A stretch of 64,000 nt of DNA, from contig CM074514.1 of assembly GCA_037379345.1 (NCBI GenBank), forward strand, positions 13,888,001 to 13,952,000, in the 5' to 3' direction. The notes beneath the pieces are model-generated. The model made no database searches. It saw only the letters and a program-made list of their open reading frames with translations, and was not told the origin of the DNA. This document shows positions 1 through 27,600 of this stretch, piece after piece. Positions within the stretch are counted from its first letter, which is position 1, and every line of letters starts with the position of its first letter. A program made the translations under genes and the position numbers. This DNA is from Perna viridis (taxonomy: Eukaryota).

Positions 1-1088
1 AAAAAATGCCAACTTTTATTAAATTTTGTTGCAATTGGTTTCAGAGAGTTGTACACATTCAAACGACAGAAAAATCTGTTTCAGGGGCCATAAATCCTAC
101 AACAGGCAATAAATCATTTTGAAAATTTTGGCAAAGGTCCGTATACTGATTGTGAATAATTTTACTCTTCTTCTCAATTTTGCTAAATTCAACGCTTTTT
201 GAGTATTTGCAAAAAAAAAATGTTTTTCGACCCTTTTGTTCTATTTTTAGTAACAGCAGCCACGTTTTTTTCATCTATCAAAAATCTAAACGATCATTTT
301 GTGCAGGATACCCTCAAAAACAGTAATACCAACTTTCATTAAATTGTGTACAGTAGATTCTGAGGAGACGATTTTTGAAAGTAATAACATCAAAAACAGC
401 AAAAAAACGTGTATCAACGGATCTTCACCAAAATTACATCACAGATAGATCTAATCATGGTGAACACTTTTACCAATGTCAGAATTTTGGTAAACCTAAC
501 GGTTTTTGAAATATATGCAAAACACTGTTGTCTGACCCCTATGTTCTATTTTTAGTAATGGTAACCATGTTTTTTTTTTTCACGAATCAAAAATCCAAAC
601 GGTCATTCTGTTTAAATTACCCTAAAAACAGTAATCCCAACTTTCATGGAATTCTGTATAGTATTTTATGAGAAGATTTTTGAAAGTAATAATATTAAAA
701 ACAGCAAAAAAAAAACTTCCAAAAAGGGCAATAACTCCAACAGGGGTCAACAGACCTTCACCAAAATTACATCACAAATAGATCTCATCAAAGTAAACAC
801 TTTAAACCATGTCAGAATATGGTTAAACCTAACGGTTTTTTTTAGATATATGCAAAAAAAAACTGCGCTCTGACCCCTATCTTCTATTTTTTAGTAATGG
901 CGGTCATGTTTTCTCACCGATCAAAAATCAAAACGGCCGTTTTGTGTAGGATACTCAAAGAAACAATCATCCTGTTTCATCTAAATTCATTTAGTAGTTT
1001 CAGAGGAGAATATGTTTGAAGAATTGTTAACGACCACGACGGACGCCAAGTGATGGCAATAGCTCACATGGTCTATGGCCAGGTGAGA
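1..1088 (-). mobile_element. Non-autonomous Helentron-associated (HINE/DINE-1-like) element with an internal ~300-340 bp tandem array
   Basis: Terminus GACGGACGCCAAGTGATGGCAATAGCTCACATGG...CAGGTGAG at 1038-1088 recurs at ~37100-37160, ~41280-41341, 58798-58880 and 60180-60237. The internal motif GACCCCTATGTTCTATTTTTAGTAATGG recurs near 229, 534 and 872. Confidence 0.75.
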
Positions 1089-3323
1089 TAATTATTTATT
1101 TATATATGCAGGATTCAAACCTTGGATTATCTTATAAGATAATCCGAAACATTTATATGCCAACACATGGATTCGTAAATTAGAAGTAAAAAGGTTAAAA
1201 ACATCTAAAAATGGAGAGTTTGTAATTGGTGAACTATCTGTAATCTTTGACTTCTCATACCAACGTTGGAAGCAAGAATTTTGATCAATCTATATATAAT
1301 TACCAATGGAAATGACACGTAAAGAATGAATACATACACTGACACCACAATTTTACAGTCTTCGTCATAAACTGGCTAACATAAGATATTAACACTAAAA
1401 AAAACCATTAAAATCGAGAAAACCCAAAACTGTATATTTTTTCCTTCTCTGTCACAAATCAATCAACATTTTGTGGCAAATTTGGCTATGAAATAGATAA
1501 ATAAATCATGTTTCAAGTTTTCACACAAAAAAATGTTATATTAAGCAATCACTAAGAAGTTGTTTTTCAAAATTTGGCTAATTTTTATTGGGACAAGGGT
1601 AGCAATTTTCTTTGAAAATTATGGATTCATTCAAAATATAGCTGATATTTTTGATAATTATAGTCTACTTGGATACTTATTAGACTACATCCTGGATGGT
1701 GGCTTTCCTTCTAAACCTGTATGGAAAACGGTAACTAATAGTGCGAACATCTGATTGGAACAATCGTAAACACAATGAGAGTAACTTTTCGAGATTTCAA
1801 AACCTTCACCACAGTATTCAATTAGCCAATATTGTGGAAGCATTCAAAAATGTTTACGGAAATTAAGAGATCGTATTTTATTACAAACTCCATATTAATC
1901 TAGCAGTATATGTATTTTCTGTAACATACCGTTCCAAGATGTCTATATCCATGCATGCTCGAATTGTCCGTCGACTTAGCTTCTACAAGACATCTAGTGG
2001 AATATTGTAACTGACAATTATCCCCTGCAGTTGTTTATAGAACTTGATAGTCATGATAAAAAGACGAAATATCAAATTTTGCTCGGAAGGGTACCAAACA
2101 CAATCTGGATAGTGATGAGTTGATACACTTTACCAAACTGTGCCATGTGCACATTGTTCACTGTACTGCCCGATATTCTAGGGCGATACGATGAGCTAAT
2201 ACACGGTAAGATATTATAGAAGGCATAAATGTCTATGACATCATGATGTGACGTGTATATATTTATTTATATCATGTATTCATATGCATTATAAGTGTTC
2301 GTTTCAACTCTATATCGTATACCCTATATCGCATACCCCATATCCCACTTCTAGACCTATATCGCATAGTATCATTACTTACCCGAAAGTTTAAATGTAG
2401 AAAGGAGAGAGTGCATCGATAGTAAATACATGATAAATGTTTACACATTAAAATTAAAAACTCTAAAGAATGTGTCAAAAAATGTCTGAATTAAAAAAAT
2501 GTAGATTTATAAGGACTGTAAATGAATCCTCATGTATGATATGTATAACCAGGGTTGTAAAAATACTTTTGTATTAAATATCTTACGTTTTGCAGTGTTA
2601 CTGACAGATTGAAATTTACGAACATGTGTCCGAATTATATAAGCCACAGGTTCTTGGGGTCGGGATTTTTTTCTTTTTTTATTTTTGGTAAAAAAAAAGT
2701 CCTATATACCAAAATTCATATGGATAGTACAAGTGCAACATTGCTGTTATCACACATGATTTCGTTTTTTTTCTCCCCCCTCCCCCCCAAAAAAAAATTA
2801 ATAAAAATGACAAAAAAAAATTAAAAATCCCTATCCCAAGTACCTGTGATACCTGCGAAAAATCATAGTCCAATAAATTCCGCAAGGGTCAGTGTTTCCC
2901 TGTGACGCGATGGCACAATGACATGGCCATTTTTTTCAATCATTTCTCGATTTCCTTAAAAATAGAACAAACAGCAATGTATTTCTTTATAAAAGCATTG
3001 TGTGTCAAAATAAATGATTTAGCGGTATATTTTTTGATAAGCAAGTGCGCGAATCAATTACACGTTTAATTGTGACGTCGTTGACGTAACGAATGTAAAC
3101 AATATGGCTGACCAGGGCGAAGTTGCAGCTGCTAACCAGGTTAAAATATCAACAAGTCTTACGAAGACAAAAGGTACAATAATTATTTTATGAATCTAGA
3201 TTACTATTTGGGTATGTGTACATAGTGCGTGTGGAAGGTAGTGTATGTACTGTAGACTGTAGTATAACATAAACGAACGATTTACAGGTTGCATATATAA
3301 CAAGTACATATACTGGGGTCTCA

Positions 3324-3430
3324 CTCCAGCAGTGCTACAGGTTGTCTGGCAATCTATTTTCTGACGTAAAGCTCGGGGGTAAGAGGTTGAGGTATGGAGG
3401 AACGGAATTCCAACCTTTACGTTGTAGGAG
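3324..3430. mobile_element. Internally deleted MITE, CTCC...GGAG termini (Tc1/mariner-like, TA target)
   Basis: Both ends match the 678-bp element at 61223-61900 and the copy at 40667-40759. The right flank is TA. Confidence 0.65.
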
Positions 3431-5793
3431 TAGGGTCCTCTATCACGGTAGCTAATTGTTTTGTACACTGAAGAAAAACAGGTCTGTGGAAAATGGGATT
3501 ATTATTTTGTCTGAAGTTAGAACAACATCTAACCTTTCATTGCATTCAACCTATTTTTCTGATGCAGCATCTTCAACACCCAGTAATTGCTTGCAAAATA
3601 AGTTAAATTTCTGCACTATTGAATTTCCCATTGTATCAAGATCACTGCATTGAAAAGAAAATTCTCTTATTTTTTTTTCCTATCAAAAATCTTGCAATAG
3701 TAATTTGAAGGGATGCACTTCAACAACTTTTCATTAGATCATGATAACTTTTAAATCCTTTTTTCTTCTTCATTCATTTTAATAGCAATTTTCTGAACAT
3801 GATCATCGAGAATTTTTAAAATGACCGAAAATCACATAAAAATTTCAAGTTGGCCCCTAATTTTTCTGTAATTTAGGAAACTTGACAAATGTGTGGTTTA
3901 AAAATTTACACTTAGTCCCTATGTCAAGCACAACGAATATTGAGAATGTGCATCTTTGCACTTGATCTAGCCGTACATAGTCGAGGGTGATATATTTTCT
4001 GAGTATGTTACTCGGTGTATCACTCTCTACTGTGGGGACTTTGATACAGATACAGTAAAACTCAACTTGAATGAAAGTGACATGTATTTTAACATTTTAA
4101 AAATAAATCAACAATAGCAAAAGAACAAAAATTAACATTTCTACTATTCATTTGATCTTAAATGAAAAATGAAAAAGATGCCCATACAGACAAAAAAGGC
4201 ACTTCCGATCAAATGGGACATATATCGTGATGAGGGTGATACCAATAATTTTTAAGGCGACAGAGCTAGAAAGGAATAGACCAAAATAACAAATAATGCT
4301 TATTCAATAGAAATTAGTTTTTTTGTATGGATTATAATATTTAGAATCTATAGCACTGGCAGTGAATGTTAAATTTTGTTTTCAAAATGAATAATTGCAT
4401 GTGAGGCACTTCAAGTCTTAAATTATTTTCCTACCAACTGACTGTAAGCCTGACATATCTCTCAATCACAATATGTATAAAGAAATTACGTTAACATTTC
4501 CAAGCACTTTCTAATATTTTTAGTTTTCAGATGGTAAAACTGTTGAAGGCGCAATGTTGTAGAAATTAAACAATTTCAATTTTATTCTGTCCTATCTGGA
4601 GTCATTTGACCATGTATTTTCAATATTACATATGGTGGAAAAATTAACAAAAGTAAATATCCGAAAAGGAGGAAGTACTTATCAATGAACCCTTGTGTCT
4701 GGCTAAAATGGGGAAGAAGAAACAATTTTAGTTTTGCAAGGAACAATTAGCATTACTTGACAAATACTGTTGTAAGTTTGGATAAAAATGTTTTTCTTTG
4801 TAAGAACATTGTCGGTAACTATGAACATGCTTGTGAAGGTTTAAAAAAAACCAGCTTATTCTACACACTGGAAGTAAAGGGTGATCCACAACACAGTTTT
4901 GTATGAAATAAATATTTAACTATAAAGCACAAGGGATAATAGGTTAAGTACCAGTTTGATGCATTAATAGGTTACCTGGTCATTGATCATGGCGACGAAA
5001 TTCGTGCGGACATCAAGTATTCTCAAGAACAGATTCAAAAACAAGTAAGTTGAACAGACAATATCATTTTAGTTAATGTACATTTAGAATATGAACTGAT
5101 CGGAGATTGACACAGATATTAACGAAATTGTCGGAGATGTGCACGATACTGTAAAACCTAGCTGAAGTTCAAACACAAGATATTTTGAGACAGATTAATG
5201 ACACTTTCAGTAAAACATAATTACTGCCTCCGAAGACGGTAATAAGAACACTAATCGGCCAGTAAAATGTATGTATCAAGAAAGTCTTAAGAAGGCCTGT
5301 AGAAGTGATATACATCTATTGACGTTGCGCACGGTGTTAATACCGTAAAGTGTAACGTCAAAAAGACACTTTTAGAAGACATTTCTTCTATACAAGATTG
5401 TGTTAACGGTGTGTTTTTGTTTTGATGTTAAAATCATACTGAACTTGTGAACTTAGGTTCAAATATTGAGCGTAGCTAAAAATGCATTTGAAAATAAAGA
5501 ACCGATATTTTTTGCATGAATTAAATCATTTCGAATCTGCGAACAAATAACATAAGAAAGTCATTTAAAAATCCATCCATGCTTATCCATGCTAGTCAAT
5601 AATAGTTGCTGTTTTGTTGCTGTTGTTGATGTTGTTTTGTTGTTGTTGTTGTTGTTTTTTGTTTTTGTTTTTGTTTGTTTTTTTTTTTTGGGAGGGGGGA
5701 GGTGGGGTCTCCGAAACAAAATTTGCTTGCCCTTAATCTCGATGTATAAAAATTTCATCTCCGAAGTGGGCTTCTGAAGTACGACCCTTATTG

Positions 5794-5794
<1 letters not shown>

Positions 5795-5826
<32 letters not shown>

Positions 5827-6320
5827 GGGGTTTAACGCCCGAGCAGCAATATTTCAGCTATATTCAGCCGATGAACATGGAAGGGATGATAAAATGAACA
5901 TGAAATGATGATTATGAAATGAAAAATGAGATTGGACACAAGGACAAAAGGGTCGACAATTTTTTATTGCCACAAGAAAAAGGGTGGGATGGGTAGGGTC
6001 GGGCAATTTAGCCTCCTGTGGCGGAGCTCAAAGGTTCCTTCTAATAACGAATACCACAACAGGGTTCTTTAACCTGCGAGGAACGTGTTATCTTTCCCAA
6101 CACGGTGCACCACTACGGTTTGCGGTCAGGTTTTCCGTATTATAGCCAGACAATCACAGTATTTAACACGCCAGGGGTACCCCATTAAACCACCTTGGGC
6201 ACACAACCCAGTTGCTCTGTGGGCAGAGCGCCTAGCCCCCAGCACTATTTAGTCGCCTTTTACGACAAGCTTAGCGCTGCTGCAGGCCTATTCTTTTGAC
6301 ACCCGGACCTGCACGGGACT
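5795..6320 (-). mobile_element. SINE-like retroposon, full-length copy 1, (AATC)n tail
   Basis: Colinear with 14151-14660. (TGAT)n tail at 5795-5825. Degenerate 12-bp TSD: GACCCTTATTGT (5783-5794) and GAACCGTATTGT (6321-6332). Confidence 0.85.
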
Positions 6321-7710
6321 GAACCGTATTGTACATTAATCCTTGGCATATAGCAAGTATGTACAAGTGTCGTTATTTAGACATTTATTTTTGCGCGAGC
6401 TATATTATTTTTTACGAAAAGCCACGAAATTAAATAATATTTTCGATGCAACGATGGATCAAAACAATTGATGGGAGAAAAAAAACAACAAAATGTTTTA
6501 TTCGCTGTTCTAGTTTCGTTTATTTTACGGTTTAAACAATGGGAATTTGATTTTCCGAGATTGAGGTGTGGTCTGGGATTTTTTGCATGAAAATGCACCC
6601 CAGAAAAATCATTTGATCCATGTCTACGTGCAAATTTACCGGGTGCGACTATGTCGGGGTCGAGAGTACTGGTGGTATAGCATACACAGTTGGACGAAAA
6701 GATAAATATCAAGTCGACGAAAATACAAAAACAATGAGGTGCTTTTCAAGATATTATCTAATGAATAGAATAAAAATAACGATCATACATGCATATATTT
6801 TCTAACACGCATACTGAGAAAAACATTAACAAAAGAAATAACTCTTACACACCCTTACTTTTTAAAACTTCACATACATGTACGCGCTCGCTCTTTTATT
6901 GGACAAACATGTGCATCGATTAAACGTGAATATTGTCTTAAAATTTGCATTATGTTTCATTCTCTGTCCAATTGATCTCGATGCTTTTTATACTGGTATC
7001 CCTTTTTTACTTCCGTTGCCAAAGGCGAAAGCAGGTCTAGGAGTTGGGTCACTCTGTTCGTCCGTAATAGTTCAGACTGTCCTTTCAACTCCTCTGAAAC
7101 TTCCCAACAGAAAATCCTGAAACTTGGTATGTTGGAAGAACTCATATGTAGTTGTGTATATTGTCAGGAAATTTTGATTCTTTAATTTATATATACGGGA
7201 ATTACATTCGTATGTTCCGTAGTTTCGTATATACATGTACATCCGTAACGCTTTTTTCGTTGCATTTTCCCCACAAATATAAATCACAGCTATAGTGCGA
7301 CGCAGATCCGAACATCGATTGGTCTAACTTGTTTAAATCGGAAAATTCGCTTAATCAATATACTGGTAACGGTTACTTATTATATACATGCATTTTACAA
7401 ACAAATCACGTTTATGTGTTCCACTTACCATTAGTATCAATTTCTTAGCATCGTTTCTTTCATTTTTTTAAAACATTTCCTTATACCATTCATTCTTTGT
7501 TTTTCGTCATTTTTCTGCTTTTGCTAACTTGTTTACTTTGATTCGCTCTTAACAGAAGATTGGTAATCCATATTTGGCGTGGTTTACCATCAACGCATAT
7601 TGTTTTTATTTTTGTTGTTGTTTGATTATTCCTAGAGCGGGTATTGAAGAAAAAGATTTTACACTAAAAACGTCGTGGATGTTTTTGTTTTTTTTTCTCC
7701 CCACTCAACG

Positions 7711-7869
7711 TAGTCCGAATTTCCTCTGACCCTGCAACCCTCCTCTTTTTTATTTGGATATTGATACCAATATCCAAATAAAAAAGAGGAGGGATGCAGG
7801 GTCAGAGGAAATATATCAATATCCAAATAAAAAAAGGGAGGGTTGCAGGGTCAGAGGAAATTCGGACTA
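7711..7869. mobile_element. Fold-back MITE with TAG termini and 9-bp TSD (AcademH- or Mutator-like)
   Basis: Terminal inverted repeat (TIR) TAGTCCGAATTTCCTCTGACCCTGCAACCCTCC and its reverse complement at the right end. Perfect TSD CACTCAACG at 7702-7710 and 7870-7878. Confidence 0.85.
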
Positions 7870-9775
7870 CACTCAACGTCGCATGCACTATAATTAAGTC
7901 AAATAACCATGTAGATATTTTGCAGAATTTCATAATTTAGGGTTTCAAAAAAGTTTTGAAATGCACATTTCAAATACATCTGTTGGGAATGTGTAACTAT
8001 ATTCATTAAAGATATCTAAGGCGCGAAATACATTAAGACCATGCTCGAATTGGTTGAAATATATAGGTGGACATTTTCTTTAGAACTCGTAAAAATGGTA
8101 GAATTTTTATCATGTAGTTTGTATTTCCCTGATTGTTCTTGTTCTCGGTTCTATGTTAGATGCACATTCTCCATATTTTCATTTTCTGTGTATAAAAATT
8201 CATTTTTATGGGTAGTTTACCGTTCGTTTATTGCTAAATTCTCCGACGATGTACAGCGTCTACATCACTTACTATATAAGGAAAGTGACCATGCAAAATG
8301 AAAAACAACGCTCACCGCCATGGTTTCTAACATATGAGAAATTAGCGGAATTTCGCGTCGCTTCCTGCGAAATTAGGGAATATATATTGCATTTCGGTTT
8401 TTGTTAAAATACTATATCCGTTCTGAATGCAATATTTAGGTTACGCGTCTACAGTAATTTTTAACGATTTTGGTGACAATTTCGTGTCAGAATCCGACTT
8501 AAGTATCATAATGTGCCGTTTGTAGGTATCATAATGTTAATTTATGCAAAATATCAAATATTTTGATATGTGATAAATCCTACTTTGGTTTACTGTACAT
8601 GAACCGCGAAGCGTTAATCATCCCAAAGTTCAATACTTGTATGCAAATCACAAATTGCAAACAATCCTTAAAACTCAATTTCTAATCGATTGTCAGTCCA
8701 AATGTAGGTTTGTTCCTTCATCAAAGCCTTAACTTTGATTTTTTTGAATCGCGATCTGCGGACCAATCAACGTTGATGACGCCACAGCACCAAGTTCGTC
8801 TATGTATACAAAATAACCTACATACTATCTTGCCCAAAAATAGAACCATACAATCAAAGGTCTTACAACAAATCAAATTAAATTATTTCTAGATGAAAAC
8901 CTCGCTATGACTTCGAAAAAAAATAAAAACAAATTTCAACTTTTCGAACTTAAATTTTAAGTTTTTTTTCCAAATTCTAGCATGTACATATACCATAAAA
9001 ATTCCACTTTCCTTGGAACAGTCGAATTTTTTTTTAATTTTTAGTCTAGAATTGATTTGTTTTTCATAAGCTTGAAAATTTTGAAATTTTGACAATCGGA
9101 AATTATAATATTGAAATTTTGATCATTTGAAAACCCGAGATCGCGACTTCAAAATTTCTTTTGGCCAATCACATATATTCAGTATTTTTGATCATGATTC
9201 ATGTAGTCTGGTGAAAAAAAAAGAAATGCTTCTACCGATAAAACCTTGGTCCCCTTGATTACTCTTTCAATTTTATTTCAGTCTTACTGCCCAATGCAAA
9301 CCCGAACAAACACTATCCGAGTATGTGCAAAACCAAAAATGTAACTTCTTTAAAATACATAGAGTTGCTACTCCGTGGTATATAGAGGATGGCAGTACAG
9401 TGTTTGTCCCGTAAAATATCTAAATCATAGTCGGTTCACGGGTAAAGTGAGTGTGGAATTCGGGAATGGAAATCAAACGAAATCAGGAGGGGACTTCTGA
9501 ATAGAAATTTTCCTTGTATTGTTTCATTTCATATATTGTCGTTTGAGGAAATCCCTTTTCTCTAAATATATACAAAATTTTATCAAGTTTCCTCGCTTTA
9601 AAGCACTTTTTATAGTCCAAGTTGCTTATAGTCAGATAGCAGCTTAAACAAGTAAAATTTTCGAGATTATATGGTATAAAAGTCGAAATATAGTTTTGAT
9701 GGTCTAAATATAAACTAAAATTTTGAGACTTATACATTAATTTGCTTTGTAAAAAGCAGAGTATTTGGTAACTTC

Positions 9776-10243
9776 CATTCTCCCAAGTCAGAGTTTTGAG
9801 TCCACACTCGCTCCTTCAAACCCCTCACATCACTCATTCATATTTAGCGGGTATCGTCCAGCGCCATCTAGTGAGTTACTTAAATTTTACCCGGATCCAA
9901 AATCCAATCAAATCACTCGTAATAGAAACTCTTCGATATAACTTACAAAGTGGTTACACTTAACGTCATTAAAGACTCTAAACAGAACCTACAGTTATCA
10001 TTTTTGCTCATATTGCATCATTTGTGACATCATACAACTTTCAGTTACTATATCGGATCCATTACCTCGTATTATTGTTTACCTTTCCACAGACATTTTT
10101 TGTTAAATCGATTTTCATTGGCGCTTCTCACCCGGAGAAGCAACCAATCGGAATTGGCTGGACGATATTCTTTTAATATGAATAAGTGATGTCAGGGGTT
10201 TGAGGGAGCGAAGGTGGACGCAAAACCCTGACTTGGGAGGATG
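9776..10243. mobile_element. MITE with ~85-bp imperfect TIRs and 9-bp TSD (AcademH- or Mutator-like)
   Basis: Termini CATTCTCCCAAGTCAG ... CTGACTTGGGAGGATG. Perfect TSD GGTAACTTC at 9767-9775 and 10244-10252. Confidence 0.85.
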
Positions 10244-10424
10244 GGTAACTTCCAGCAAACCAACAAGTTGTTTTGTATAACTTGCGTTGATACTGTGACG
10301 TCATTAACGTCGATTGGTCCGCACATCGGGCTTCAAGTAACCCCAAACAAATTTCATTTTGAAAATGAACAAAATTTTGATATTTTGATGAAATTCATTA
10401 GGAATAAAATAGGCCTAATATGGA

Positions 10425-10445
10425 ATGTTTTTAATTTTTGAACAG
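10425..10445 (+). CDS. Putative first coding exon (MFLIFEQ) of a small uncharacterised membrane protein
   Basis: ATG follows an in-frame TAA. Donor CAG|GTAATG. A 64-nt phase-0 intron joins in frame to the exon at 10510. Confidence 0.35.
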
Positions 10446-10509
10446 GTAATGTGATTTTACAAATTTTGTTATTAAAAATCATCACAGTTTATTAGTCTTT
10501 CATTTTCAG

Positions 10510-10641
10510 ATTGATCATCTACAGCGGGAGATAACCCTTGTCTGGAGAACTATGCAAGACTTGATGATCTTGTTTGCACCAATGATTATAAGCTGGATGG
10601 GTTTCTTCATAATCAGAATGTTCTTTTCCCATGCTTGGGAA
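10510..10641 (+). CDS. Internal exon of uncharacterised two-TM protein (IDHLQREITLVWRTMQDLMILFAPMIISWMGFFIIRMFFSHAWE)
   Basis: Acceptor CTTTCATTTTCAG|, donor GAA|GTGAGT, 132 nt open frame, one hydrophobic helix, phase-compatible with the exon at 11193. Confidence 0.65.
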
Positions 10642-11192
10642 GTGAGTTGTGATAGTTTTTCTTGTGATTGTGCGTATATCTTTATGAACGGAATTTCGCC
10701 TTTCCGCTGATAAACGAGGTCTCCAAAAGCTGAACTTGGTTTTCTTTGGGCTTAGGGGATAACCATTTGATTCCGAGGAAAGGGGGTGGCAGCTTTTGGA
10801 AATAAATATTCTGGCCATGAAAAAGTTGAAAATAACTATTCTGCCCTACACCTCTTAGAAAATAAATAAAATTTCTGACCTCAGTACAGTTACTTCATAC
10901 ATTGAAATGGAAATAAATAATCTTGCCCCAATGTGCATGGTTGGAAATAAATTTTCTGACCTGCAAAATTTCAAAAGTAAATATTCTGACCCAACAAAGT
11001 CTTTATTGGCATACTTTTTACTTTTTGTCGAAATATTTTGTTATAAATACTTACAATTTTTTACTGAAAAATCTAGGTACCACTTTTCTAGAAAAAAAAA
11101 CATTTTTAACTTCAGTACACATTTTTGCAAAAAGCAGGTGTTGCAGGATGCAGCCAGAGAAATGTTATGCAAAGTATTTTGTATATTTGTAG

Positions 11193-11474
11193 GGACTATG
11201 GATAGCTCTCAACAGTACATTAATGGCAGGATGTCTAGCGTTTTTCATGACCCCACTGCATGACTCTCTTGACAAACTTTTGAATGCTTTAAACGAATTT
11301 AGTGATATGAAATTTGAGAAGATTGAGGATGAATTACCTGAGGACATTGGCTTTGGAGATGCTGGCCAAGACGACCTCATAACACCAGGTGAGGGAGAGG
11401 AAAATAGTCCAACAGAAAAGTGTGAAACCAGTGATGATGGAGAGGAAAACACAAATAACAACGACACGGACTGA
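11193..11474 (+). CDS. Terminal exon of uncharacterised two-TM protein with acidic C-tail (GLWIALNSTLMAGCLAFFMTP...EENTNNNDTD*)
   Basis: Acceptor TTTTGTATATTTGTAG|; extends ORF 11223-11474 upstream in frame; AATAAA at 11617-11622. Confidence 0.7.
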   Translation, partial: GLWIALNSTLMAGCLAFFMTPLHDSLDKLLNALNEFSDMKFEKIEDELPEDIGFGDAGQDDLITPGEGEENSPTEKCETSDDGEENTNNNDTD

Positions 11475-11836
11475 ATAGTGTTACCTTGTAAAAACACCCA
11501 TAATTCAGTTTTAACCCTATTATGATTATTTATGTACGTGATGTACATGTATAGTCCATAGGCATTTCTAATTCTTATCATTTATCTTTCTAAACTATAG
11601 GTTAACATACATAGGAAATAAAACTGACGATAAGAAAGTTTGTTTTAAGTTTATAGATTTGATGATATTTATTTCAATTCTGTATTGAATGTAATCATGA
11701 CAAATATTATCAATCATGTAAAGCAAGACATACTGAATGCATGTATATTAAAAACCTTTTTTTTTCAGAAACAACAAACTGATTCTGATTTTGCATACGA
11801 CAAATTAAATTAGTATATAAATATCAGTAGTGTAAT

Positions 11837-13936
11837 CTACAAAACCCCATCCTCCCTATCATTGCTAGCGTCATTGCTTTCAATAAAAAGCAGTGCATCT
11901 GATATGTCATAAAATACATGCCTAAATGGGAACTTAACAAAAAAATCAGCTGCAGTTAGAGTGTCTATAAATTTTTGTGGACACTTCGCAAAAAATATTT
12001 TGATGCCAACAGATTGGTATTCCTTAACTATTTGATAAAGGATACTAACACCTGAGAGATCAATATACGATATCATTTGACAATCTACAACAATATAATG
12101 AACAACGTTTGTAACAAATTTGCGTTTTGAACCATGATTTGGAGTACAATCAGTTTCGACTTCCACTTCATTTACCAAAACCACGGTGGCAGTTTTCCTT
12201 TGCTTCCGTTTAAGTTTTATAGGGTCTACGATCTTCCTGTATAGTTCGAATTTAAACAATTCTGCGTTGGCAAAAAACAAAGGAGCTTGGAACTGGAATA
12301 TCTTTGTAGTTTGGTGTTCGATCACATTTTCTCTGTTTTCACAGTCTAAATATGCATTTTCCTTTCCTGCCACACCTAACAAAATGCTGCTGGAATTCTG
12401 ATGCCGCACGACAACAGTCAAAACTGAAAAGCCTATTCCGGCAATAATTCCATAATCCAGATTCACAAACACAGAAACGAAACAAGTTATCACCCATACA
12501 CAACAGTCCAATTTGTTTATTTTCCATATTTTTGGCAAATCCCTGAACTGTAATATCAAATTTTTCATGGCTACGGTTATCATGGCTGCTAATACGGACA
12601 TCGGAAGTGATCGAAACAGTTGACCAATCCATAAAATGACTAAAAGCATAAATACGATTGTTGGCAAAGAATTCATGGTAGTATTAGCTCCGAGGTCACT
12701 GTCGAGCATAGTTCTGCTTGGAGTTGCAGATTGTGGGAAACAGGAGAAGAATGACGAAAGGATATTTGTCAGTCCGTAAGCAACCATTTCTTGGTTGTCG
12801 TCCACTCGTTGTTCGTGGATTTTTGCGGTAAGTTTTGCTAGCGAAATTGTCAGCATTAAAATCAAAAGTGACATTATAAAACAATCTACAATGATTCTGG
12901 GAGTGATACTAAGGTCTGGAACAGTAGGTGCACGGAAGCCTGAAGGAATGGTACCAATTATAGAAACGTTTAGCTTCCTCTCAAAGTTGATAACGTGTGA
13001 CATCAAAGTTGCGATAACGACAACGACCAAGTCAATTGGAATAGGAACTTTTAAACGAGTTTTGAATTTTTCATTGATACAAACTTTCACAAACAAAAGT
13101 ATTAGCATGCAAACTATTGTTATGACAAAGTCGGAAACAACAGTTTTGTCCAAATTTTCGAACAACTCAATGTACATTTTAACGAGTTTACCAGCACCAG
13201 AGTGTGTAGAAACTTTTACACCGAACATTTTAGGTACTTGACTAGAAACTATATGAATCCCAGCTGCCGTTGTGAAACCGCCTATGAAACTTTCTGACAT
13301 ATACGTCATTAAAAATCCCATACGTAAAATTCCAAGTAAAGAAAGTATCGATCCAACGAGGAACGAAGCGGTAACTGCAGTATTTACTTTATTGTCTATT
13401 ATCATTTCTTCGCTTAGTGGTCCCTGAATAGAACTTAAAGTGTCTAAGCTACTATTATCTGCATACGCTAATGCCAAGGAAACATTTTGATAAGTTGTGA
13501 ACGATGATTCAAAAATGTCCGTCTCTGATAGGACTATCTCTTGAACTAGCAAAGCAATCACTGCATTTGTTGCAAAGGCAACGTATGGAGATGCTCCAAA
13601 GAGCATGTAAAAAATTAAAGGAAAGAATGTAGTATATAACCCATATACTGCAGGTAATCCTGCTAAAACAGAAAACGCCAAACCCTGAGGTAGATGCATA
13701 AAACTAACTGTCAAACCGGCAATCAAGTCTCCACCAAAATATTCCTTTCTGTAGGTACTTACTACTTTGATAACGGGTAAAAATGTTGTAAGTGCATTCC
13801 AAGCTCTCCTTTTGGAACAATGGCATTGTTTTTTTAGACGGCTCAAGGATGTTGGTCTTTGAGGTTTACAATCCGGGTAAAGACGGTCTAATTTGTCCAT
13901 TGAGAGAATAGACCTGGTTACTTGTGAACCATGCAT
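11837..13936 (-). CDS. SLC26A: SLC26 family anion transporter (prestin/pendrin-like, sulfate-transporter plus STAS domain), single coding exon, ~699 aa
   Basis: Family motifs GDLIAGLTV..HLPQGLAF, YGLYTTFFP, GFTTAAGIHIVSSQV, DDNQEMVAYG, and STAS features FQAPLFFANAE and VVDCQMISYIDLSGV. The likely start is ATG 13936, just after the acceptor TTTTTTTTCAG| (exon begins 13943). The ORF-track start at 13960 lies in the intron. The paralog number cannot be assigned. Confidence 0.95.
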   Translation of the reverse strand: MHGSQVTRSILSMDKLDRLYPDCKPQRPTSLSRLKKQCHCSKRRAWNALTTFLPVIKVVSTYRKEYFGGDLIAGLTVSFMHLPQGLAFSVLAGLPAVYGLYTTFFPLIFYMLFGASPYVAFATNAVIALLVQEIVLSETDIFESSFTTYQNVSLALAYADNSSLDTLSSIQGPLSEEMIIDNKVNTAVTASFLVGSILSLLGILRMGFLMTYMSESFIGGFTTAAGIHIVSSQVPKMFGVKVSTHSGAGKLVKMYIELFENLDKTVVSDFVITIVCMLILLFVKVCINEKFKTRLKVPIPIDLVVVVIATLMSHVINFERKLNVSIIGTIPSGFRAPTVPDLSITPRIIVDCFIMSLLILMLTISLAKLTAKIHEQRVDDNQEMVAYGLTNILSSFFSCFPQSATPSRTMLDSDLGANTTMNSLPTIVFMLLVILWIGQLFRSLPMSVLAAMITVAMKNLILQFRDLPKIWKINKLDCCVWVITCFVSVFVNLDYGIIAGIGFSVLTVVVRHQNSSSILLGVAGKENAYLDCENRENVIEHQTTKIFQFQAPLFFANAELFKFELYRKIVDPIKLKRKQRKTATVVLVNEVEVETDCTPNHGSKRKFVTNVVHYIVVDCQMISYIDLSGVSILYQIVKEYQSVGIKIFFAKCPQKFIDTLTAADFFVKFPFRHVFYDISDALLFIESNDASNDREDGVL

Positions 13937-14150
13937 GTTGTAACTGAAAAAAAAGTTCACAGAATTGAGAATAAAAATAATTGATTGAAGAAATAGCCTA
14001 TTTATGCAAAAATGTACATTTTCGTGGTCTTTACTGTTTTACTGTGTCCCTTACAGAACAAAATTGTTGCGAGTCAATTGGCGAGGATTGCTTCTATCAC
14101 GAAAATGATGAGATGTTCGTTATGACCATGTAGTAATTGACAGTAAATGA

Positions 14151-14660
14151 TTGATTGATTGATTGATTGTTGGGGTTTAACACCCGAGCAGCAATATTTA
14201 AGCTGTATTCAGGCGATGAACATGAAAAGGATGATAAAATGAACATGAAATGATGATGATGACATGAAAAATGGGATTGGGCACAAATTTTGATTGCCAC
14301 AAGATAGAAGGGAGGGATGGATAGGATCGGGCAATTTAGCCTCCTGTGGCGGAGCGCAAGGGTTCCTACTCCTATCGAATACCACAGCAGGGTTCTTTAA
14401 CGTGCAAGGAACGTGGCATATTTCCCAACACGGTGCACCACTATGGTTTGCGGTCAGGTTTTCCGTATTATAGCCTGACAACCCCAGCATGTAACACGCC
14501 AGAGGTACCCCATTCCACCACCTGGGGCACACAACCCAGTTGCTCTGTGGGCAGAGCGCCTAACCCCCGGCTAGGTTTCTGAGCACTATTTAGTCGCCTT
14601 TTACGACAAGCTTAGCGCTGCTGCAGGCCTATTCTTTTGACATACGGACCTGCACGGGGC
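14151..14660 (-). mobile_element. SINE-like retroposon, full-length copy 2, in SLC26 intron 1
   Basis: Perfect 12-bp TSD GACAGTAAATGA at 14139-14150 and 14661-14672; (AATC)n tail; colinear with 5795-6320. Confidence 0.9.
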
Positions 14661-14784
14661 GACAGTAAATGAGCCCTTTAGCAAAATAATGATAAAATGA
14701 CATCAATATATAGTAATGAAACTAATTAGAAGTAAATACAAAGTATTTATACATGTATGCACGCGTGACATATTTACTACTTAC

Positions 14785-14900
14785 CTGGATGTCAAGAGAT
14801 AAAAAACTGTTTGTGTAATTTTCTTTTAATACATTAAATGGTTTAGTTGTGACATTCCTCCGTTGATATCAAATAAAATTCCTTTTGATTCAATCTGTCT
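14785..14900 (-). other. Putative non-coding first exon of the SLC26 gene
   Basis: Perfect donor CAG|GTAAGT at 14785/14784 pairs with the acceptor at 13944. The 5' boundary is approximate. Confidence 0.55.
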
Positions 14901-14917
14901 GATAAAGAAACAACACA

Positions 14918-14940
14918 GAGGCCATTGGTGACGTCCACAA
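14918..14940 (-). promoter_or_regulatory. Candidate SLC26 promoter elements (CCAAT box and CRE/ATF-like TGACGT)
   Basis: GCCATTGGTGACGTCCAC lies just upstream of the putative first exon. Motif match only. Confidence 0.35.
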
Positions 14941-16899
14941 GTTGAGTAACAGGGCGTCTTCGAGTCATGCAAGATGGTATATCGTGACGATTCGGTGTTT
15001 GTACCAGAAGTACAAAAAGAATTGTATAACTCTGTCGGCTCTTTCCTCGTTGTAAAACTTTAAGTAAGATAAATTGCTAGCCGATTTAGGTACATTTTTA
15101 TCTCAGATTTTAAGTTTTTCGTAGTATTGGTATTATGACGATTTTTAACGAATTATAGTGAGTTTCATACTTTGTTGCTCGCCTGTTAAGATCGGTGAGT
15201 CGTGATAATCACTGGTTCACTTTCGGATATCTAATTCTGTTTGCTCAGCCCTTCACTGTATAAGAACCAGTTGGTAATGAGTCATATCGACAAATATGCA
15301 CTTGTTGAATTGGGACCTGGTCATATTGGCACAAGTCAAATGAACAATTTGTTAAATCGACACCCGCACTTGTTGTTAATTCGGTACCAAGACTAAGCTG
15401 GGAAGAATAAAACTACATAGTTATATAGTTACAATGCATATTTAACCCCAGGACTTAGTTAAATCGGGACATTGTCAAATCGGTACTTTCATGACAAAAA
15501 TCCGACAAAACATTGGCAATTTTAGTTGAAATTAATTTTGTATCAAATGTAAAAATGTGTATGCATGTATTTTTAATTTCTTATAGTTGAATGAAACAAT
15601 GCATCTGAATATAATTATATCCCCACTGGAAAAGCAGTAGGTTTATAGTGATCATGCTGTCCGTCCGTTCGTCCGCTATCATTCTCATAAACCAAAATTA
15701 CAATTTGGTATAGGGATACATAATGATACAATGGTACGCAACAAACAAATTACATACCGAGGTAAGATTGCGAGAGAGAAGATTTGCCAAATGTATAATA
15801 AATGTACATAAATATAATATTGATGATACACCTAAGGTTCAACTTTTTGTTATCTTAATCATTTTGCATAGCTGAATTAAAACTGAAACATTACGTGAGT
15901 TCATCAATACTGGAAACTTATGACAATTAGGTTGTCTGGTATGCGTGATTTATAGTAATCTATTTCTATCATTTTGAAAATTTTGACTTAAAAAAAGAAA
16001 ATGAAAATCGTCTCCTATATCACCTGAATTACAGAGTGGACATGTTCTTCCCTAGGAACATTTCTCCATCTTCCCTTTTTTATAGGTAAATGATGATGTA
16101 GTTCTAAATCTACATAAAGTAAAAAATGTCCTTATTATCTAATTTATCAAAATAGTTTTCAAATCCTAGGGTATTCCCAATAATGCGATAATTTAATGCT
16201 TTAGGAGACTTAAACATCTGCACACCAGCTTTGATCAACAAGTTTTTGCGTAAAATTATTATGTACCCAAGTAACATTATTGAAAAAAATGGTTGTTCCA
16301 TATATAAGAAAATCCACAATTATCAAAAATTTATCTTATATTTCTGACCCATTCAATGTTCACATTATACTTACATTATAGTGAAGATGGAAGTTTTTTT
16401 TCAGGCTGTTCTATCATCTTCGGGCACTAATTGAGCATTCTAAGTTCAAATATAAATTCTACTTCAGTCTCGAGGGGAATGCAGGATTTTCCACTCGAGA
16501 TAATTAAATTGCAGATTTCAACCAACGAGCTTTAGCGAGTGTGTTAAAATCTTAAATTTAACTTTCGAGGGTTGAGAAATCCTTTAATCCCGAGACATTT
16601 CTCCCATGAATAAAACCATAAAAAAATAATTAAACAACATCCTAAATTCTCCCAACATAAACTACGTCATCAAGGACTTCCCCTCCAGTCATCAAGTCAT
16701 TGCGTCATCGATATCACTACCATTACGATTAGTTGATACACTCAACTAATCTTTTAAAATATGAATAACATTCGTAAATCAACAAGTAATTTATTGATCA
16801 ACAATATGAATAACAACTGTAAACATGGTAAATACTCTCGGCGGGAGTCTTCACGCGACAGTTTAATTTCCTGGCACGTGGCGGACTTTTTCATAAGTA

Positions 16900-20740: not shown

Positions 20741-22949
20741 GTGCTAAATTTGATTACTTGTAATATATTAATAGAAATTAGTTGTTCTAATTTAATTGAA
20801 TTGTTGTCTAGTGTGTCCTAATCAAAATTGATTATAAACAAAGTTTTAAAGTTAGTTAGATTTAATGTCATAGTTAATTAAGAAATAAATCGTGGAGGGG
20901 GTAGATTTATACTCCTTTTAAATATGGGTACGGCATTTATATTCGATTATTTAACACCGAGCGACATCGAGGTGTTAAATAAAAATATAAGTGCCAAACC
21001 CATGTTAAAATTACAAATCTACCCCCTGAAAGAATTATTTCTTTTCTAATATAACAAATACGGTATTTTTGTGAAAAATTTCCCTAGGCGTAGCCAAAAT
21101 AACGGCTGTTCCGTTTAACCTCCCCGCATGAAGTTGAATTAATTAAGAAATAAAATAGACCTTCTTCACCTCCCCGTCATCGTACGACTGTATAATGTAA
21201 TGCCTAGCATTTGGGGTTTTGGCTTTTCATGGTTAACGATTTTGAACAGCCTGCCCTTGTGTTCAACCACTGTACCGATCTTCATTATATACACTTCCAT
21301 TTTGTTGACAAACAGTCAAAACAAACAGACGACAAAATATGCATTTTACATGCGCCGCCGATTCTGATAATATATAAATAGTTTATTGTATAAATTCTCG
21401 AAGTTCAAAAACATTTTTTGCTATTTATTTACAGCAATATTGGTCCCGTCATAACAATGCGTGTTCACATCGCCGCTTATTTCCTCAGGAGGCAATGAGA
21501 ACAGCCGCCAGGAAAACGCCGATGATGCGCATTTCTGTTATAAATTTGTATATTTATGTGATCGTATATGTTAAATGTGTGTATTTATATAATTGATTTC
21601 AATCAGATAAACCTCTCAGCCGTTAAATCATTGCGTAAACGTTTTCAAATGAGTGTTTTGTCTCTAAGCGACAGCTAAAGAGAGACAATGCGCAGGTGGC
21701 AAAGTTGGGGTTGTACACTGTTTTGACGATATGAAGACGTCATATTAGAAAAGGAAATAAATTTATATAAGGAACTCTCCCTTTTATGTACCTTGTAGGC
21801 ACTACAAGCTTTTGTACCATGGGTAGCAATATCACAAACTTCTAAAACATTTACTAAGGTTTTTTTAACTGGCAGGTTATTAATAAAAAAAATTGTGTTG
21901 CTCACCTTATTTTAAAAAATATAGTCTATAAAGCACATTCTTTATAACAAAATCCAATGGATTTATCGACTGCCCTAATAGATTCGTTCGTAAAGGACAA
22001 GGTTTTTTCTTTGAACCTTGTTTTCCCAAATAGATATTCGACCCCTAATTGCATCTCTACGTTAAAACTAAATCATTTATCGCATGATATCAACTCTTGC
22101 CTATTTTTATAATGCTGGTAGTTTTGATGTTATTGCCGTTTTCATTTTGTCTATGATTTATGTTGAGGTATTCCATAGAAATAATTGGATATTATAGAGT
22201 AAATTTTGTTTGTGGTTTCAGTTCTTCTTTTATCTTACCGATCGTCAAGGCCTTATAAAAGTAGTTGAACCCACTGCAGTTTGCATTACCCAGTCCACAG
22301 TCCGATGTTGATCATTTATGTGTCATTTTTTTTATTTTGAATTCGGAAATGGTCATCGCTCTGGATATTATTACTTTTGCTTTGAGAACTATTCAGAGAT
22401 TACTTGAAGGCGAGTTAACACATGTGGGAGACTTTATGGTAATCTCTGAAAGTATTTATCGTTTTGTGTTTAGGTTATACGTTGGTGCATTCGTTACGTT
22501 GTCAATCCCTTTTTCCGCCTCCATGTACATGTATCTTAAAAATCTCCTTAGAAAATATAAGAACTTTGAAGAAACAAACCATGTTACCGATTTTACCAAC
22601 AACTCAGCACAATGCATTTGTCCCAAATTATCTTCTCTTTAATTCCGTCAGTATGAAAATTGCAGTTTTTCTTACTAAATTGAACAGTGTCATAATCCTA
22701 GAAGGTGAAAGAAGCCATTGTTTCTCGATCAAATGTTGAAGGAAAAAAACCAGGATCTAGACATCTTAAAATGTCACGGTTGGACAACGGGAATGACTTC
22801 ATGCAGTTGTAATACAACGATTACAGCGTGTCCTCCCTGAAAAACAAACCGTGTAAAGGAATGGCTTGCCAGAAGGACCGTAAAACATCAAATCTGTTAA
22901 TGACTTCGAGGAAAATCTTATGAATTACTTAATCAGACCGACTTTTTCG

Positions 22950-24648: not shown

Positions 24649-27600
24649 CTAGAAAAAAACAAAACATACAATCATAATTTGTCAGTAATCTTTCCTTCTA
24701 TTAGTTATTAGTTCCCACTTCAAGTGTCTAGAATTTATGTAAGGGGCCATAGTGGTAGAAATTTTGCTGTTTTATGTAAATTGACACCATTAACAAAATA
24801 CCCAGTTTCCTCAATTTCACTGTCTGCTTTGAAAAAATGGAGATACCTTCTGAGAACTCTTAAATTATGTGACCCGTTTCTGACTGTAAAGGTATTTTCT
24901 CTGTTTCTTCAACAACTTTAAATTCACTTTTATTTAATTAACTGATTAAGTCCCCAGTAAAGAGATATTTAAAAATGCATTCTTTTTAAATATTGAAAGC
25001 TGCATATTTTGTTTTAAATAATGTCACAACAAAACATGTGATAAGGGATCGAACCATAAAACCAACTTGACTTTATTATCAATGAGATTGTTTGATAATA
25101 AGACAGAAATGTAAAATTGATCCTAAGTTCTGTTAAAAAATTAAAGGAACATATTGTGACTTCAAATTTTAAATAAATTTTACATTTACAATATTCTGTG
25201 AAATTGACAGCAGTTTATTTCTGATTCTTAGAAAATAAAATTTCATTTTCTGGACAAAACCCCAAATATAAAAAACTGACAAGTAGTCTTTGTATTTAAC
25301 CTTTAGATGAATACTTGTGAAAAATATCTTGCTATTTTATTTCACAAAAAGGAAGGTAGGTGTATTACAGTTTTTTGTTTCTCTATCTCCAGTTTTATTA
25401 TCTATATGAATATATGACCCCTTTGATAATAGATCATTCTATTTGTTCATGACTGAGGTTTCCTTCATCTGTTCCCTAACAAACCTTCTTCCAGAGTGTT
25501 GGCACAGGTGTTGCTGCTGTTTCCTGATAGGCAAACAATTGATATGATTGTATTTCTGCATGGTTCTTTGCTATGTAAGTCATGTTCCACGATAAGACTA
25601 TTCCTGGAATGTGGTAATGAGAACAAGTCATTAGAATGCTGAGCATGTGTATTTGTATTTTTGAACACTAGAGCATTTCAGTGCAAAACCAAAATAACAA
25701 CAAATTCAAAGCATATTCAATTGCTAGTAGCTTTACATTTCATTTTAATAAAAAAAACAGTTTTTGTTCTGGACTACAATGTCACATACCCTACAATCTT
25801 AAGTTCAAATAGGTTTTAGGATAAGAGGAATATAATCTATATAATATAAAAATTTAATAATGGTTAGAGTAAACTGAGAAATTTACCTACATCCTCCAAT
25901 ATATTTGAGTTATATACTTGCCCTGACTGACTCTAGATATTTTGAGTGTAGGCTTGGGAGCAAGAGGTTTCTCTCCAGGTTTGATAACCGGAGGATCTAC
26001 ATGTGGCAGAGCTGCAGGATGTTGAACTGGCTTTGAAACTGAAGGTTGATTGGTCTGAGGTAGCAATGGTCGCTGTTTATTAAGAAAGAAAACTGTTACT
26101 TTGTAGATAGATTCTCAGTGACATGACTCTGCTAAGTAGAAATTGGGTACAAATAAACTCTATATTTCCTTTTCATCTCAAACAAAACTGCTGTTAACCA
26201 ACAAAGTTGTTGCTACAAAATCATGTTCCTTTTGGTTTAGAAAACAAAAAACTGAATACAATACTGCTTTTCTTGTTGTATAAAAAGCGTTATGCTCTAC
26301 ACTACTTACTAGATTCTGATTATTTGGTGCTGACTGTAATGGTGGCGGTGGTCTTACAGCTCTCTGCTGAACCCCTGTAACACCAGATGTGGTCGGAGCA
26401 CCTGCCCTGGGTAGTGTTGTTAATGGCAATAGTGCAGCAGCTCGTAATTGTGGTGGTGGTGCTCCTGTCTGCTGTGAAACAACAGGAGCACGGACACCTG
26501 GTGTTTGCCCAGGAGCTGTTGGGGCAGTGACAACCTGTAACAGATTACCAGGCTTAATGTTGGGTGATCCCGAAAATACAAGATGCAAGGGTTGCTGTTG
26601 AGGATTAACAAATCTTGTTCCTGCTGGTGAGCCTAATATGATATTTTTTTGAGGTAATGTCACTTGTTGTGGAGCAATACCACAAACAAGTCCCTGAGTG
26701 GGCTGAACTGTAGTCACAACTGCTGGGATGTTGACTGGTTTTGTGACTTGTTGCAAAGGTTGTTTTGTGGCGCTCTCTTCTTCATCAGTCAAATCAATGA
26801 TTTTCATTGGCGCTTTTGCTACTGTAGACATAACTGAAGTAGGCATTGCAGCCTTAACAGTAGTTCCGGAGGACGGAGTTGATGTGACCATTATAAACTG
26901 AGGGGAGATAGGAATCTTAACATTCACTGATGAAATGTTTGTATGAGTCTTCTGCTGTTGCTGTCTAGTAGAATCCAATAAACTTTTCACTGTTTTATTG
27001 GAAGGATAGCTTTCTTTGATAGAATTAGGTGACAGTAATATTTGGCTCTGTTGTTGTAAAGGTATTTGACCAGCCTGTTGTTGCTGTTGTATAGGGAACT
27101 GTATTGGTTGATGTAGTGGAATCTGAAATCAAATATTATGACAACAGTCCATGACAAGTTAATTTAAACAGAGAATAAGATTTACAATTCAAAGTTTTGG
27201 GACATTTCTTTCTTTTTACTGACAATTTTGAGTTTCATATATGGAAATGCATAATGTAACAATACACAAGTTTTTGAAGCTTATCCCGATGATGAATATT
27301 AAGTTCACACAGCTTTTTCAGATAAACTTTTTCAACAGGAAAAATGTTAACATTTGAAATGTATTTGTTGTATAAAACAAATCACTGACATACTCTTTGT
27401 CAGGTGGGAGGAGTAAATATTCAGACCACTTACCACTGGTATATTTAAGGCTTGCTGTATGGAGGAAGGAGTTGATGCTACAGTTGTAGACCTTAAAGGT
27501 GTCAAGTTATTAGAAACAGAGATCACTTTAGAAGTATTTGGCAGTGCACCTACAATCTGTTGATGGGTAATAACAGGTATAGCTGTCTTAGGTGGTGTCT

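What the first reader, a model, noticed from the sequence alone, without database searches (positions are those of the whole stretch)
10425..11622. Hidden small spliced gene encoding a two-TM protein with an acidic tail
Seen: exons 10510-10641 and 11193-11474 have canonical splice sites, join in phase 0 and are followed by AATAAA. A 7-codon exon (10425-10445) supplies a plausible ATG. The ~144-aa product has two hydrophobic stretches (LMILFAPMIISWMGFFIIRMFF; GLWIALNSTLMAGCLAFFM), an amphipathic segment and a very acidic tail. The ORF track shows only a fragment, and I recognise no family. Inference: a lineage-restricted membrane protein. An acidic, possibly cation-binding tail beside an SLC26 anion transporter hints at a linked ion-handling or biomineralisation role, but that is speculation.
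Basis: partly seen in the sequence, partly recalled or inferred. Interest (0 to 1): 0.7.

Follow-up and report, generated by a model that had tools for sequence, protein, structure and literature searches.

The report
Mussel-restricted two-pass membrane protein gene
This is a real, spliced, single-copy four-exon mussel gene, longer than first proposed and already listed without a function in four Mytilus species, whose product is predicted to be a small membrane-anchored adaptor protein; nothing found ties it to shell-building.

Summary
The gene is real, but the proposed start is wrong. RNA joins 3173/4971, 5044/10510 and 10641/11193. No join at 10445/10510 was listed. The true model has four exons, starts at ATG 3104 and gives 185 aa. 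Full-length orthologues (196-197 aa, 96-99 of 185 residues identical) are annotated as uncharacterised or hypothetical in four Mytilus species. Every named hit is a Mytilus protein, and the gene is single copy here. No Pfam, NCBIfam, PDB or fold match was significant. Anatomy: an Ile/Leu heptad helix, two moderately hydrophobic stretches with a short loop, an amphipathic helix, a fast-evolving acidic spacer and a conserved 13-residue end (11 of 13 identical). There is no signal peptide. Best reading, inferred: a hairpin membrane adaptor with both ends in the cytosol. The link to SLC26 rests on position alone. That neighbour is one of 8 uninterrupted SLC26 copies in the genome, and the two transcripts appear partly independently across runs. 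Verdict: a sound, ordinary lineage-restricted gene of untested function, modest interest.

The parts
3104..3173 (+). Coding part of exon 1 (ATG 3104; residues 1-23 plus one base). The 5' end of the transcript is not resolved.
   Evidence: Joint listed as 3171->4969 'GT..AG (cut +2)' in X21 (1 read), X1, X2; in-frame stops upstream; first 3 residues identical to the Mytilus orthologue
4971..5044 (+). Exon 2 (residues 24-48): conserved N-terminal motif and start of the heptad helix
   Evidence: Joints; 17-18 of 25 identical to five Mytilus proteins; same exon ends in Mytilus-like ORF P0012
10510..10641 (+). Exon 3 (residues 49-92): rest of the heptad helix, first hydrophobic stretch (about 10558-10614) and the loop
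   Evidence: Joints 5044/10510 and 10641/11193; 25-27 of 44 identical; Kyte-Doolittle 2.04; same exon ends in P0011
11193..11474 (+). Coding part of exon 4 (residues 93-185, stop TGA): second hydrophobic stretch (11193-11249), amphipathic helix (about 11253-11309), acidic spacer, conserved last 13 residues (11433-11471)
11475..11700 (+). 3' UTR with AATAAA at 11617-11622; contigs end at 11642 (X3) and 11700 (X1)
10425..10445 (+).
   Evidence: No joint listed; 2 of 7 identity; chance rate 0.66
11650..13943 (-). Neighbour, not shown to be a partner: last exon of an SLC26 anion transporter (CDS 13936-11837, Sulfate_transp + STAS); its 3' end meets or overlaps this gene's 3' end
   Evidence: Pfam; contigs X3 record 10, X5 record 19, X2 record 8; minus-strand AATAAA at 11668-11673
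14785..15061 (-). Non-coding first exon of the SLC26 gene (ends as the contigs lay them)
   Evidence: X3 record 10, X5 record 19; donor and acceptor read

Best explanation
This is a transcribed, single-copy four-exon gene conserved in mussels, whose 185-aa product is predicted to sit in a membrane as a two-helix hairpin and likely works as an adaptor or tether, with both ends probably in the cytosol. Shown: gene structure, splicing, orthologues, conservation pattern. Inferred: (1) residues 65-83 and 93-111 cross or loop into the bilayer, with a loop of about 9 residues; (2) with no signal peptide, the 64-residue N-terminus and the acidic tail face the cytosol; (3) the heptad helix (a: Ile, Ile, Met; d: Ile, Leu, Val, Leu) pairs with a second copy or a partner; (4) the amphipathic helix lies on the membrane surface; (5) the disordered acidic spacer holds out the conserved terminal 13 residues to a soluble or opposing-membrane partner. 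The ER or another inner organelle is the likeliest place (from general knowledge of hairpin proteins, untested).
For: Splicing in 4 of the 7 RNA or RNA-guessed runs laid, from 4 study codes; introns present in DNA-like run X18. Open 558-nt frame, all GT-AG. Orthologues at E 1e-67 to 5e-66 in a local comparison, core residues 20-131 identical at 67-69 of 112. Conservation is patterned: exon 2 17-18 of 25, last 13 residues 10-11 of 13, acidic spacer 14 of 41, while the spacer keeps its charge (D/E 0.32-0.36 in all 5 sequences checked). Two hydropathy peaks and none in the first 45 residues. Hydrophobic moment 0.52-0.66 at residues 112-121. Heptad pattern. The single-sequence AlphaFold2 model of the Mytilus orthologue has helices 40-84 and 87-134 with low-confidence ends.
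Against: No experiment or homologue gives a function or a place in the cell. The first hydrophobic stretch is marginal in Mytilus (best window 1.52), and charges flanking the stretches are nearly even (2, 1, 1 K/R), so the topology is not fixed by them. The models are weak (pTM 0.28 and 0.24), and the second gives one unbroken helix with no hairpin. The terminal motif is missing from one homologue, fragment P0006. FFAT-like and SPRY-binding patterns (recalled) are absent, and LIR-like patterns are not at the same place in all homologues.
Confidence: 0.45

Rival explanations
1. It is a strongly diverged member of a wider animal membrane-protein family that these searches cannot reach, so it only looks mussel-restricted.
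For: The one word-free search used a 61-aa single sequence; the profile search needs shared 5-residue words; the libraries are mostly microbial; short two-helix proteins lose signal quickly (general knowledge).
Against: The core is 60% identical between this mussel and Mytilus, yet no named non-mussel protein came up among 3,346 candidates. Pfam and NCBIfam gave nothing over a cut-off.
Confidence: 0.2
2. It oligomerises through the heptad helix into a small pore or membrane-remodelling assembly, the amphipathic helix lining or bending the membrane.
For: A long helix runs straight into a two-helix hairpin followed by an amphipathic helix, a layout recalled from MCU, CorA tails and SLATT or NINJ1-type proteins. 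Conserved Pro, Gly and polar residues lie within the hydrophobic stretches.
Against: The loop has neither the MCU nor the CorA signature (recalled motifs; sequences). No Pfam match to these families. It does not explain the conserved far C-terminal motif.
Confidence: 0.12
3. It is an accessory subunit of the neighbouring SLC26, or of the nearby Na/Ca exchanger, and serves ion supply for shell building.
For: Tail-to-tail with SLC26, 3' ends meeting at about 11640-11700. A Na/Ca exchanger gene lies some 18-26 kb upstream of the ATG. SLC26 and NCX transcripts rise during larval shell formation in Mytilus edulis (PMC6662379, passages seen).
Against: The neighbour is one of 8 uninterrupted SLC26 copies on 3 contigs, and this gene has no second copy beside any other. 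X1 has a spliced contig of this gene but only short SLC26 pieces; X5 has a spliced SLC26 contig but only a 182-nt piece of this gene's last exon; X2 and X3 have both (tables cut, contig depth is no measure of level). The acidic tail is probably cytosolic, where bulk calcium binding is unlikely (general knowledge). The passages seen single out an SLC26A11-like contig; whether it is this copy was not tested.
Confidence: 0.1
4. The 47-residue hydrophobic span is a one-sided hairpin that coats lipid droplets or secretory or yolk granules and does not cross a bilayer.
For: Moderate hydropathy, conserved Pro and Gly in the first stretch, very short loop, amphipathic helices on both sides; the span is 47 residues in all 3 full-length sequences checked.
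Against: The loop carries a conserved Glu, and an Arg ends the first stretch, which suits two true crossings. No match to known droplet proteins in Pfam.
Confidence: 0.1
5. The reader's 144-aa form exists as a minor transcript from an alternative first exon.
For: The site at 10446 is a good donor, the only strong ATG-linked one within 600 nt of exon 3. X1 has a contig over 10314-10539.
Against: That contig is unspliced; no joint is listed in 4 runs; no conservation; contigs drop rare forms and read depth was low, so absence is not proven.
Confidence: 0.03

Closest known systems
Mytilus uncharacterised proteins XP_052068439.1 (LOC127707743, M. californianus), CAC5418481.1 (M. coruscus), VDI71204.1 and XP_076076131.1 (M. 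galloprovincialis), XP_071129270.1 (M. edulis)
   Same: Whole-length similarity (96-99 of 185 identical), same layout, same C-terminal motif; exon 2 and 3 ends match in Mytilus-like ORFs.
   Different: 11-12 residues longer, mostly in the acidic spacer. No function, family or paper found for any of them.
ER hairpin proteins and ER-phagy receptors (reticulon/REEP, atlastin tail, FAM134, SEC62; recalled, not from a call)
   Same: Hydrophobic hairpin, amphipathic helix after it, disordered acidic tail ending in a short motif.
   Different: No sequence or Pfam match; one hairpin only; no enzyme domain; no LIR kept at one place in all homologues.
Coiled-coil plus two-helix pore modules (MCU, CorA/Mrs2 C-terminus; recalled)
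   Same: Heptad helix runs into helix 1, short loop, helix 2, then an amphipathic helix.
   Different: Signature loop motifs absent; no soluble N-terminal domain; no Pfam match.
DUF717 (PF05338)
   Same: Weak match over the end of helix 2 and the amphipathic helix in 3 homologues (E 0.016-0.055).
   Different: 14-15.8 bits against a cut-off of 27, about 35 of 55 positions; the three hits are kin and not independent; P0001 does not match. Recalled as a soluble herpesvirus family. Treated as chance.

Membership tests
Mytilus LOC127707743 orthologue group | Full-length similarity | tested here: met
   96-99 of 185 identical to 5 of 5 full-length proteins; local BLASTP E 1e-67 and 5e-66 for the 2 run
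Mytilus LOC127707743 orthologue group | Shared intron positions | tested here: met
   Unnamed ORFs P0011 and P0012 (96% identical to P0004 over the match) leave the protein exactly at the ends of exons 3 and 2; they are read-through ORFs, not gene models
Mytilus LOC127707743 orthologue group | One best locus in this genome | tested here: met
   P0004 finds 3 matches in G000, all exons of this locus
Mytilus LOC127707743 orthologue group | Conserved gene order | not testable with these tools
   No relative's genome is held; two metagenome scans found no locus
DUF717 (PF05338) | Pfam gathering score 27 bits | tested here: not met
   14.0-15.8 bits in 3 proteins, none in P0001
Secreted acidic shell-matrix proteins | N-terminal signal peptide (recalled feature) | tested here: not met
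   19-residue hydropathy at most 0.14 over the first 45 start positions; judged by hydropathy, no signal-peptide predictor run
Secreted acidic shell-matrix proteins | Found in shell proteomes | not testable with these tools
   Main-text searches for 8 accessions and 5 peptides gave 0 papers; supplements are not covered by that search
SLC26 or NCX accessory subunit | Co-expression with the transporter | tested here: inconclusive
   Both spliced in X2 and X3; only this gene in X1 and X21; only SLC26 in X5; contigs show presence, not level
SLC26 or NCX accessory subunit | Physical binding or change in transport | not tested
   No job sent for this pair
Reticulon/REEP/atlastin-type ER-shaping proteins | Family profile match | tested here: not met
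   No such Pfam family at E up to 10
Reticulon/REEP/atlastin-type ER-shaping proteins | Amphipathic helix after a hydrophobic hairpin | tested here: met
   Predicted only: moment 0.52-0.66; helix in both models
Reticulon/REEP/atlastin-type ER-shaping proteins | ER location and tubule shaping | not testable with these tools
   Needs imaging
ER-phagy receptors | Conserved LIR motif in a disordered tail (recalled pattern) | tested here: inconclusive
   Pattern at residues 124-125 in P0004 and P0008 and the same place in P0006, at 92 and 130 in the window protein, none in P0001; it falls on the amphipathic helix, where such spacing is expected
VAP-binding FFAT proteins | FFAT motif (recalled pattern) | tested here: not met
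   0 of 5 sequences
MCU or CorA/Mrs2 pores | Signature loop motif between the two helices (recalled) | tested here: not met
   Loop reads W-E-G in all 3 full-length sequences checked (alignment)
Any solved fold | Clear structural match | tested here: inconclusive
   Model is low in confidence; best VIA Z 8.4 (rmsd 3.3, 98 aligned) among unrelated helical hairpins
Transposon gene or processed pseudogene | Many copies, or loss of introns in DNA | tested here: not met
   One locus (counts are lower bounds); X18 contigs run unspliced through every exon end laid

The most novel reading that the evidence does not exclude
A mussel-invented membrane tether: a single-copy gene that arose in the Mytilidae, anchors in an organelle or gamete membrane by a hairpin, pairs through its coiled coil and presents a new C-terminal docking motif at the end of an acidic spacer, serving a mussel-specific process such as byssus or shell vesicle handling or germ-cell organelle sorting.
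Probability: 0.15. Interest if true: 0.55.

Novelty: new member of a known kind. Interest (0 to 1): 0.27.

Why it matters
It fixes a gene model and defines a small family with no Pfam entry and no paper found. The family keeps a 60%-identical core and a near-invariant terminal motif across mussel genera, so it is under selection and has a ready handle for a pull-down. If it proves to be confined to the Mytilidae and to one tissue, it is a candidate part of a mussel innovation. As it stands it opens no long-standing question, and uncharacterised lineage-restricted membrane proteins are common in bivalves (general knowledge).

Tried and rejected
Homologue searches with single exons and longer targets found nothing: 0 of 148 candidates for exon 4, 0 of 2 for exon 3. 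Three of the 6 hits (P0002, P0003, P0005) are long repeat proteins that do not align with the family and were dropped. ESM Atlas: best 0.92 to an unnamed 54-aa bacterial cluster for a 60-residue part, 0.81 for the full orthologue; leads at chance level. PDB by sequence: nothing under E 0.1. Foldseek: 0 matches in PDB, 0 at E 0.001 among viral models. VIA-align: generic helical hairpins, 2 of 48,161 chains at Z 8 or more. NCBIfam: 0 families. Homodimer job on residues 20-140 of the Mytilus orthologue: no verdict, score 0.00, alignment not used. Metagenome scans for synteny: 0 of 599 and 0 of 188 pattern matches confirmed. No RNA holder was on record as RNA in the run index. Rfam over 2500-15500: 0. 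No similarity to the SLC26 protein (best E 0.15). Earlier findings: 3 look-ups, nothing. Paper searches by accession or peptide: 0; by topic: listings only, none about this gene by title or abstract start. dN/dS could not be run: no orthologous DNA. In one search the DNA-like run crowded the joint table (290 rows not shown), so joints there come from the table of pieces. X22 (raw reads, about 24 in 100 read) gave no joint and zero depth at 11322-11722; X5 and X6 gave only short pieces.

Full report
Observation. The proposed 7-codon first exon exists as sequence, but such ATG-to-donor pieces occur in 66% of 2,000 random 600-nt stretches of the window, and 11 lie in this intron alone.

True gene structure. 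Laying four runs on 2500-14500 gave three GT-AG joints: 3173/4971, 5044/10510 and 10641/11193. They stand in raw reads of X21 (1, 5 and 2 reads, all with the first mate on the minus strand, as expected for a plus-strand RNA in the usual stranded library) and in contigs of X1 and X2. No 10445/10510 joint was listed. A second lay showed a 715-nt X3 contig made of 133 upstream bases, exon 3 and exon 4 to 11642; its cover falls in the bins of exons 1 and 2. Of 7 RNA or RNA-guessed runs laid, 4 show splicing, under 4 study codes; X22, X5 and X6 do not. The DNA-like run X18 runs unspliced over 2900-3362, 4286-5353, 10205-10925 and 10958-12049. The four exons give 558 nt and 185 aa with one stop, and in-frame stops lie upstream of ATG 3104.

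Relatives. A word-free HMMER search with 61 residues of exon 4 gave 6 hits. Three belong to the family; three are repeat proteins and were dropped. One is the full-length 196-aa XP_052068439.1 of Mytilus californianus, named 'uncharacterized'. A profile search found 9 proteins among 3,346 candidates, one of them this window's own exon-4 ORF. Cluster look-up named orthologues in M. coruscus, M. galloprovincialis and M. edulis. The Mytilus proteins are 91-98% identical to P0004 but 52-54% to this one, so the window is probably a mussel of another genus (inference). Two unnamed fragments extend the family: P0001 is closer to this protein and P0006 to Mytilus. The gene is single copy in G000 by four searches.

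Anatomy. Residues 1-19 vary. Residues 20-41 are conserved (14-15 of 22). Residues 42-66 form a heptad repeat with Ile/Met at a and Ile/Leu/Val at d; beta-branched residues at a with Leu at d favour a parallel dimer (recalled rule). Two hydrophobic windows start at 65 (2.04) and 93 (1.59); in Mytilus the values are 1.52 and 2.08. An amphipathic helix follows. The tail is acidic in all homologues, but its middle has diverged (14 of 41), while the last 13 residues are 10-11 of 13 identical to Mytilus and largely kept in P0001; P0006 lacks them. There is no hydrophobic leader. AlphaFold2 on the Mytilus orthologue gave a two-helix hairpin with low-confidence ends from the single sequence (pTM 0.28) and one long helix from a shallow alignment (pTM 0.24), so the fold is not established.

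How it likely works. Without a signal peptide, the simplest topology puts both ends in the cytosol. A conserved short motif at the end of a charge-conserved but sequence-variable spacer is the usual build of a docking site (general knowledge). With a pairing helix on the other side of the anchor, the best reading is a membrane-anchored adaptor or tether (0.45). The rivals are a diverged member of a wider family (0.2), a small pore or remodelling oligomer (0.12), an SLC26/NCX helper in shell building (0.1) and a one-sided droplet hairpin (0.1). None was tested by experiment.

The SLC26 neighbour. It is a two-exon gene on the minus strand with an uninterrupted coding sequence. Its 3' end reaches about 11650 and meets this gene's 3' end at 11642-11700; one X2 contig runs through both, which shows no single transcript. 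The genome holds 8 such uninterrupted SLC26 domains on 3 contigs plus 17 exon-sized matches, and no other has a copy of this gene. A Na/Ca exchanger and a death-domain gene lie upstream. Runs hold one transcript without the other in both directions (X1, X21 against X5), a weak point against tight co-regulation.

What is known. No family passes a cut-off: Pfam gives only DUF717 at about half its threshold, NCBIfam nothing. Searches of the held papers for 8 accessions and 5 peptides found none; supplements and subscription journals are outside those searches. The gene is therefore annotated but unstudied as far as I could see. Resemblances to ER hairpin proteins, MCU or CorA are recalled layouts; the membership features I could test were not met.

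Verdict. Real gene, corrected model, mussel-restricted at the reach of these searches, function inferred from anatomy only. Interest 0.27.

Noticed in passing
window 11640-11700: The 3' ends of this gene (+) and SLC26 (-) meet or overlap by up to about 50 nt; each has its own AATAAA (11617 +, 11668-11673 -). In X1 the plus-strand signal carries a change at 11621 and the contig runs on to 11700.
   Followed up: partly
G000 contigs C4, C8, C10: Eight SLC26 loci with an uninterrupted sulfate-transporter domain, five of them on C8, beside multi-exon copies: likely a retroposed and then expanded subfamily.
   Followed up: partly
window 3115: Spliced contigs of two studies (X2, X3) both appear to begin at about 3115, 11 nt after the ATG (worked out from record lengths). 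An allele, a second 5' end or fading cover could explain it; unexplained.
   Followed up: no
window 3070-3110: Two TGACGT (CRE-like) half sites just before the ATG and a YY1-like motif over it (motif names recalled), suggesting a very short 5' UTR.
   Followed up: no
L009:6942 to L008:3321 (+); L008:5342 to L007:1313 (-): A Na/Ca exchanger gene (PF01699) and, on the other strand, a gene with a Death domain (PF00531) and a weak TRADD-like N match lie 2-23 kb before the window's first base.
   Followed up: partly
window 5803-6317 and 14148-14658: Two 90-97% alike copies of a roughly 510-nt high-copy repeat after a GATT microsatellite, one in intron 2 of this gene and one in the SLC26 intron.
   Followed up: no
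window 9775-10244 and 7710-7870: An element with 88-nt inverted ends (MITE-like) and a palindromic repeat with 57-nt arms, both in intron 2 and both high-copy by read depth.
   Followed up: no
window 11245 and 11379: Two amino-acid-changing alleles in exon 4: Phe to Cys in one X2 contig, Ile to Val in X2 and X18.
   Followed up: no
window about 26000-34000 (-): Several long ORFs that look like exons of an ATF7IP/MCAF1-like gene (label recalled from the sequence, not tested).
   Followed up: no
window 22265-22642 (+): A 125-codon open frame with hydrophobic stretches and no Pfam match; may be an exon of another small membrane-protein gene or chance.
   Followed up: partly
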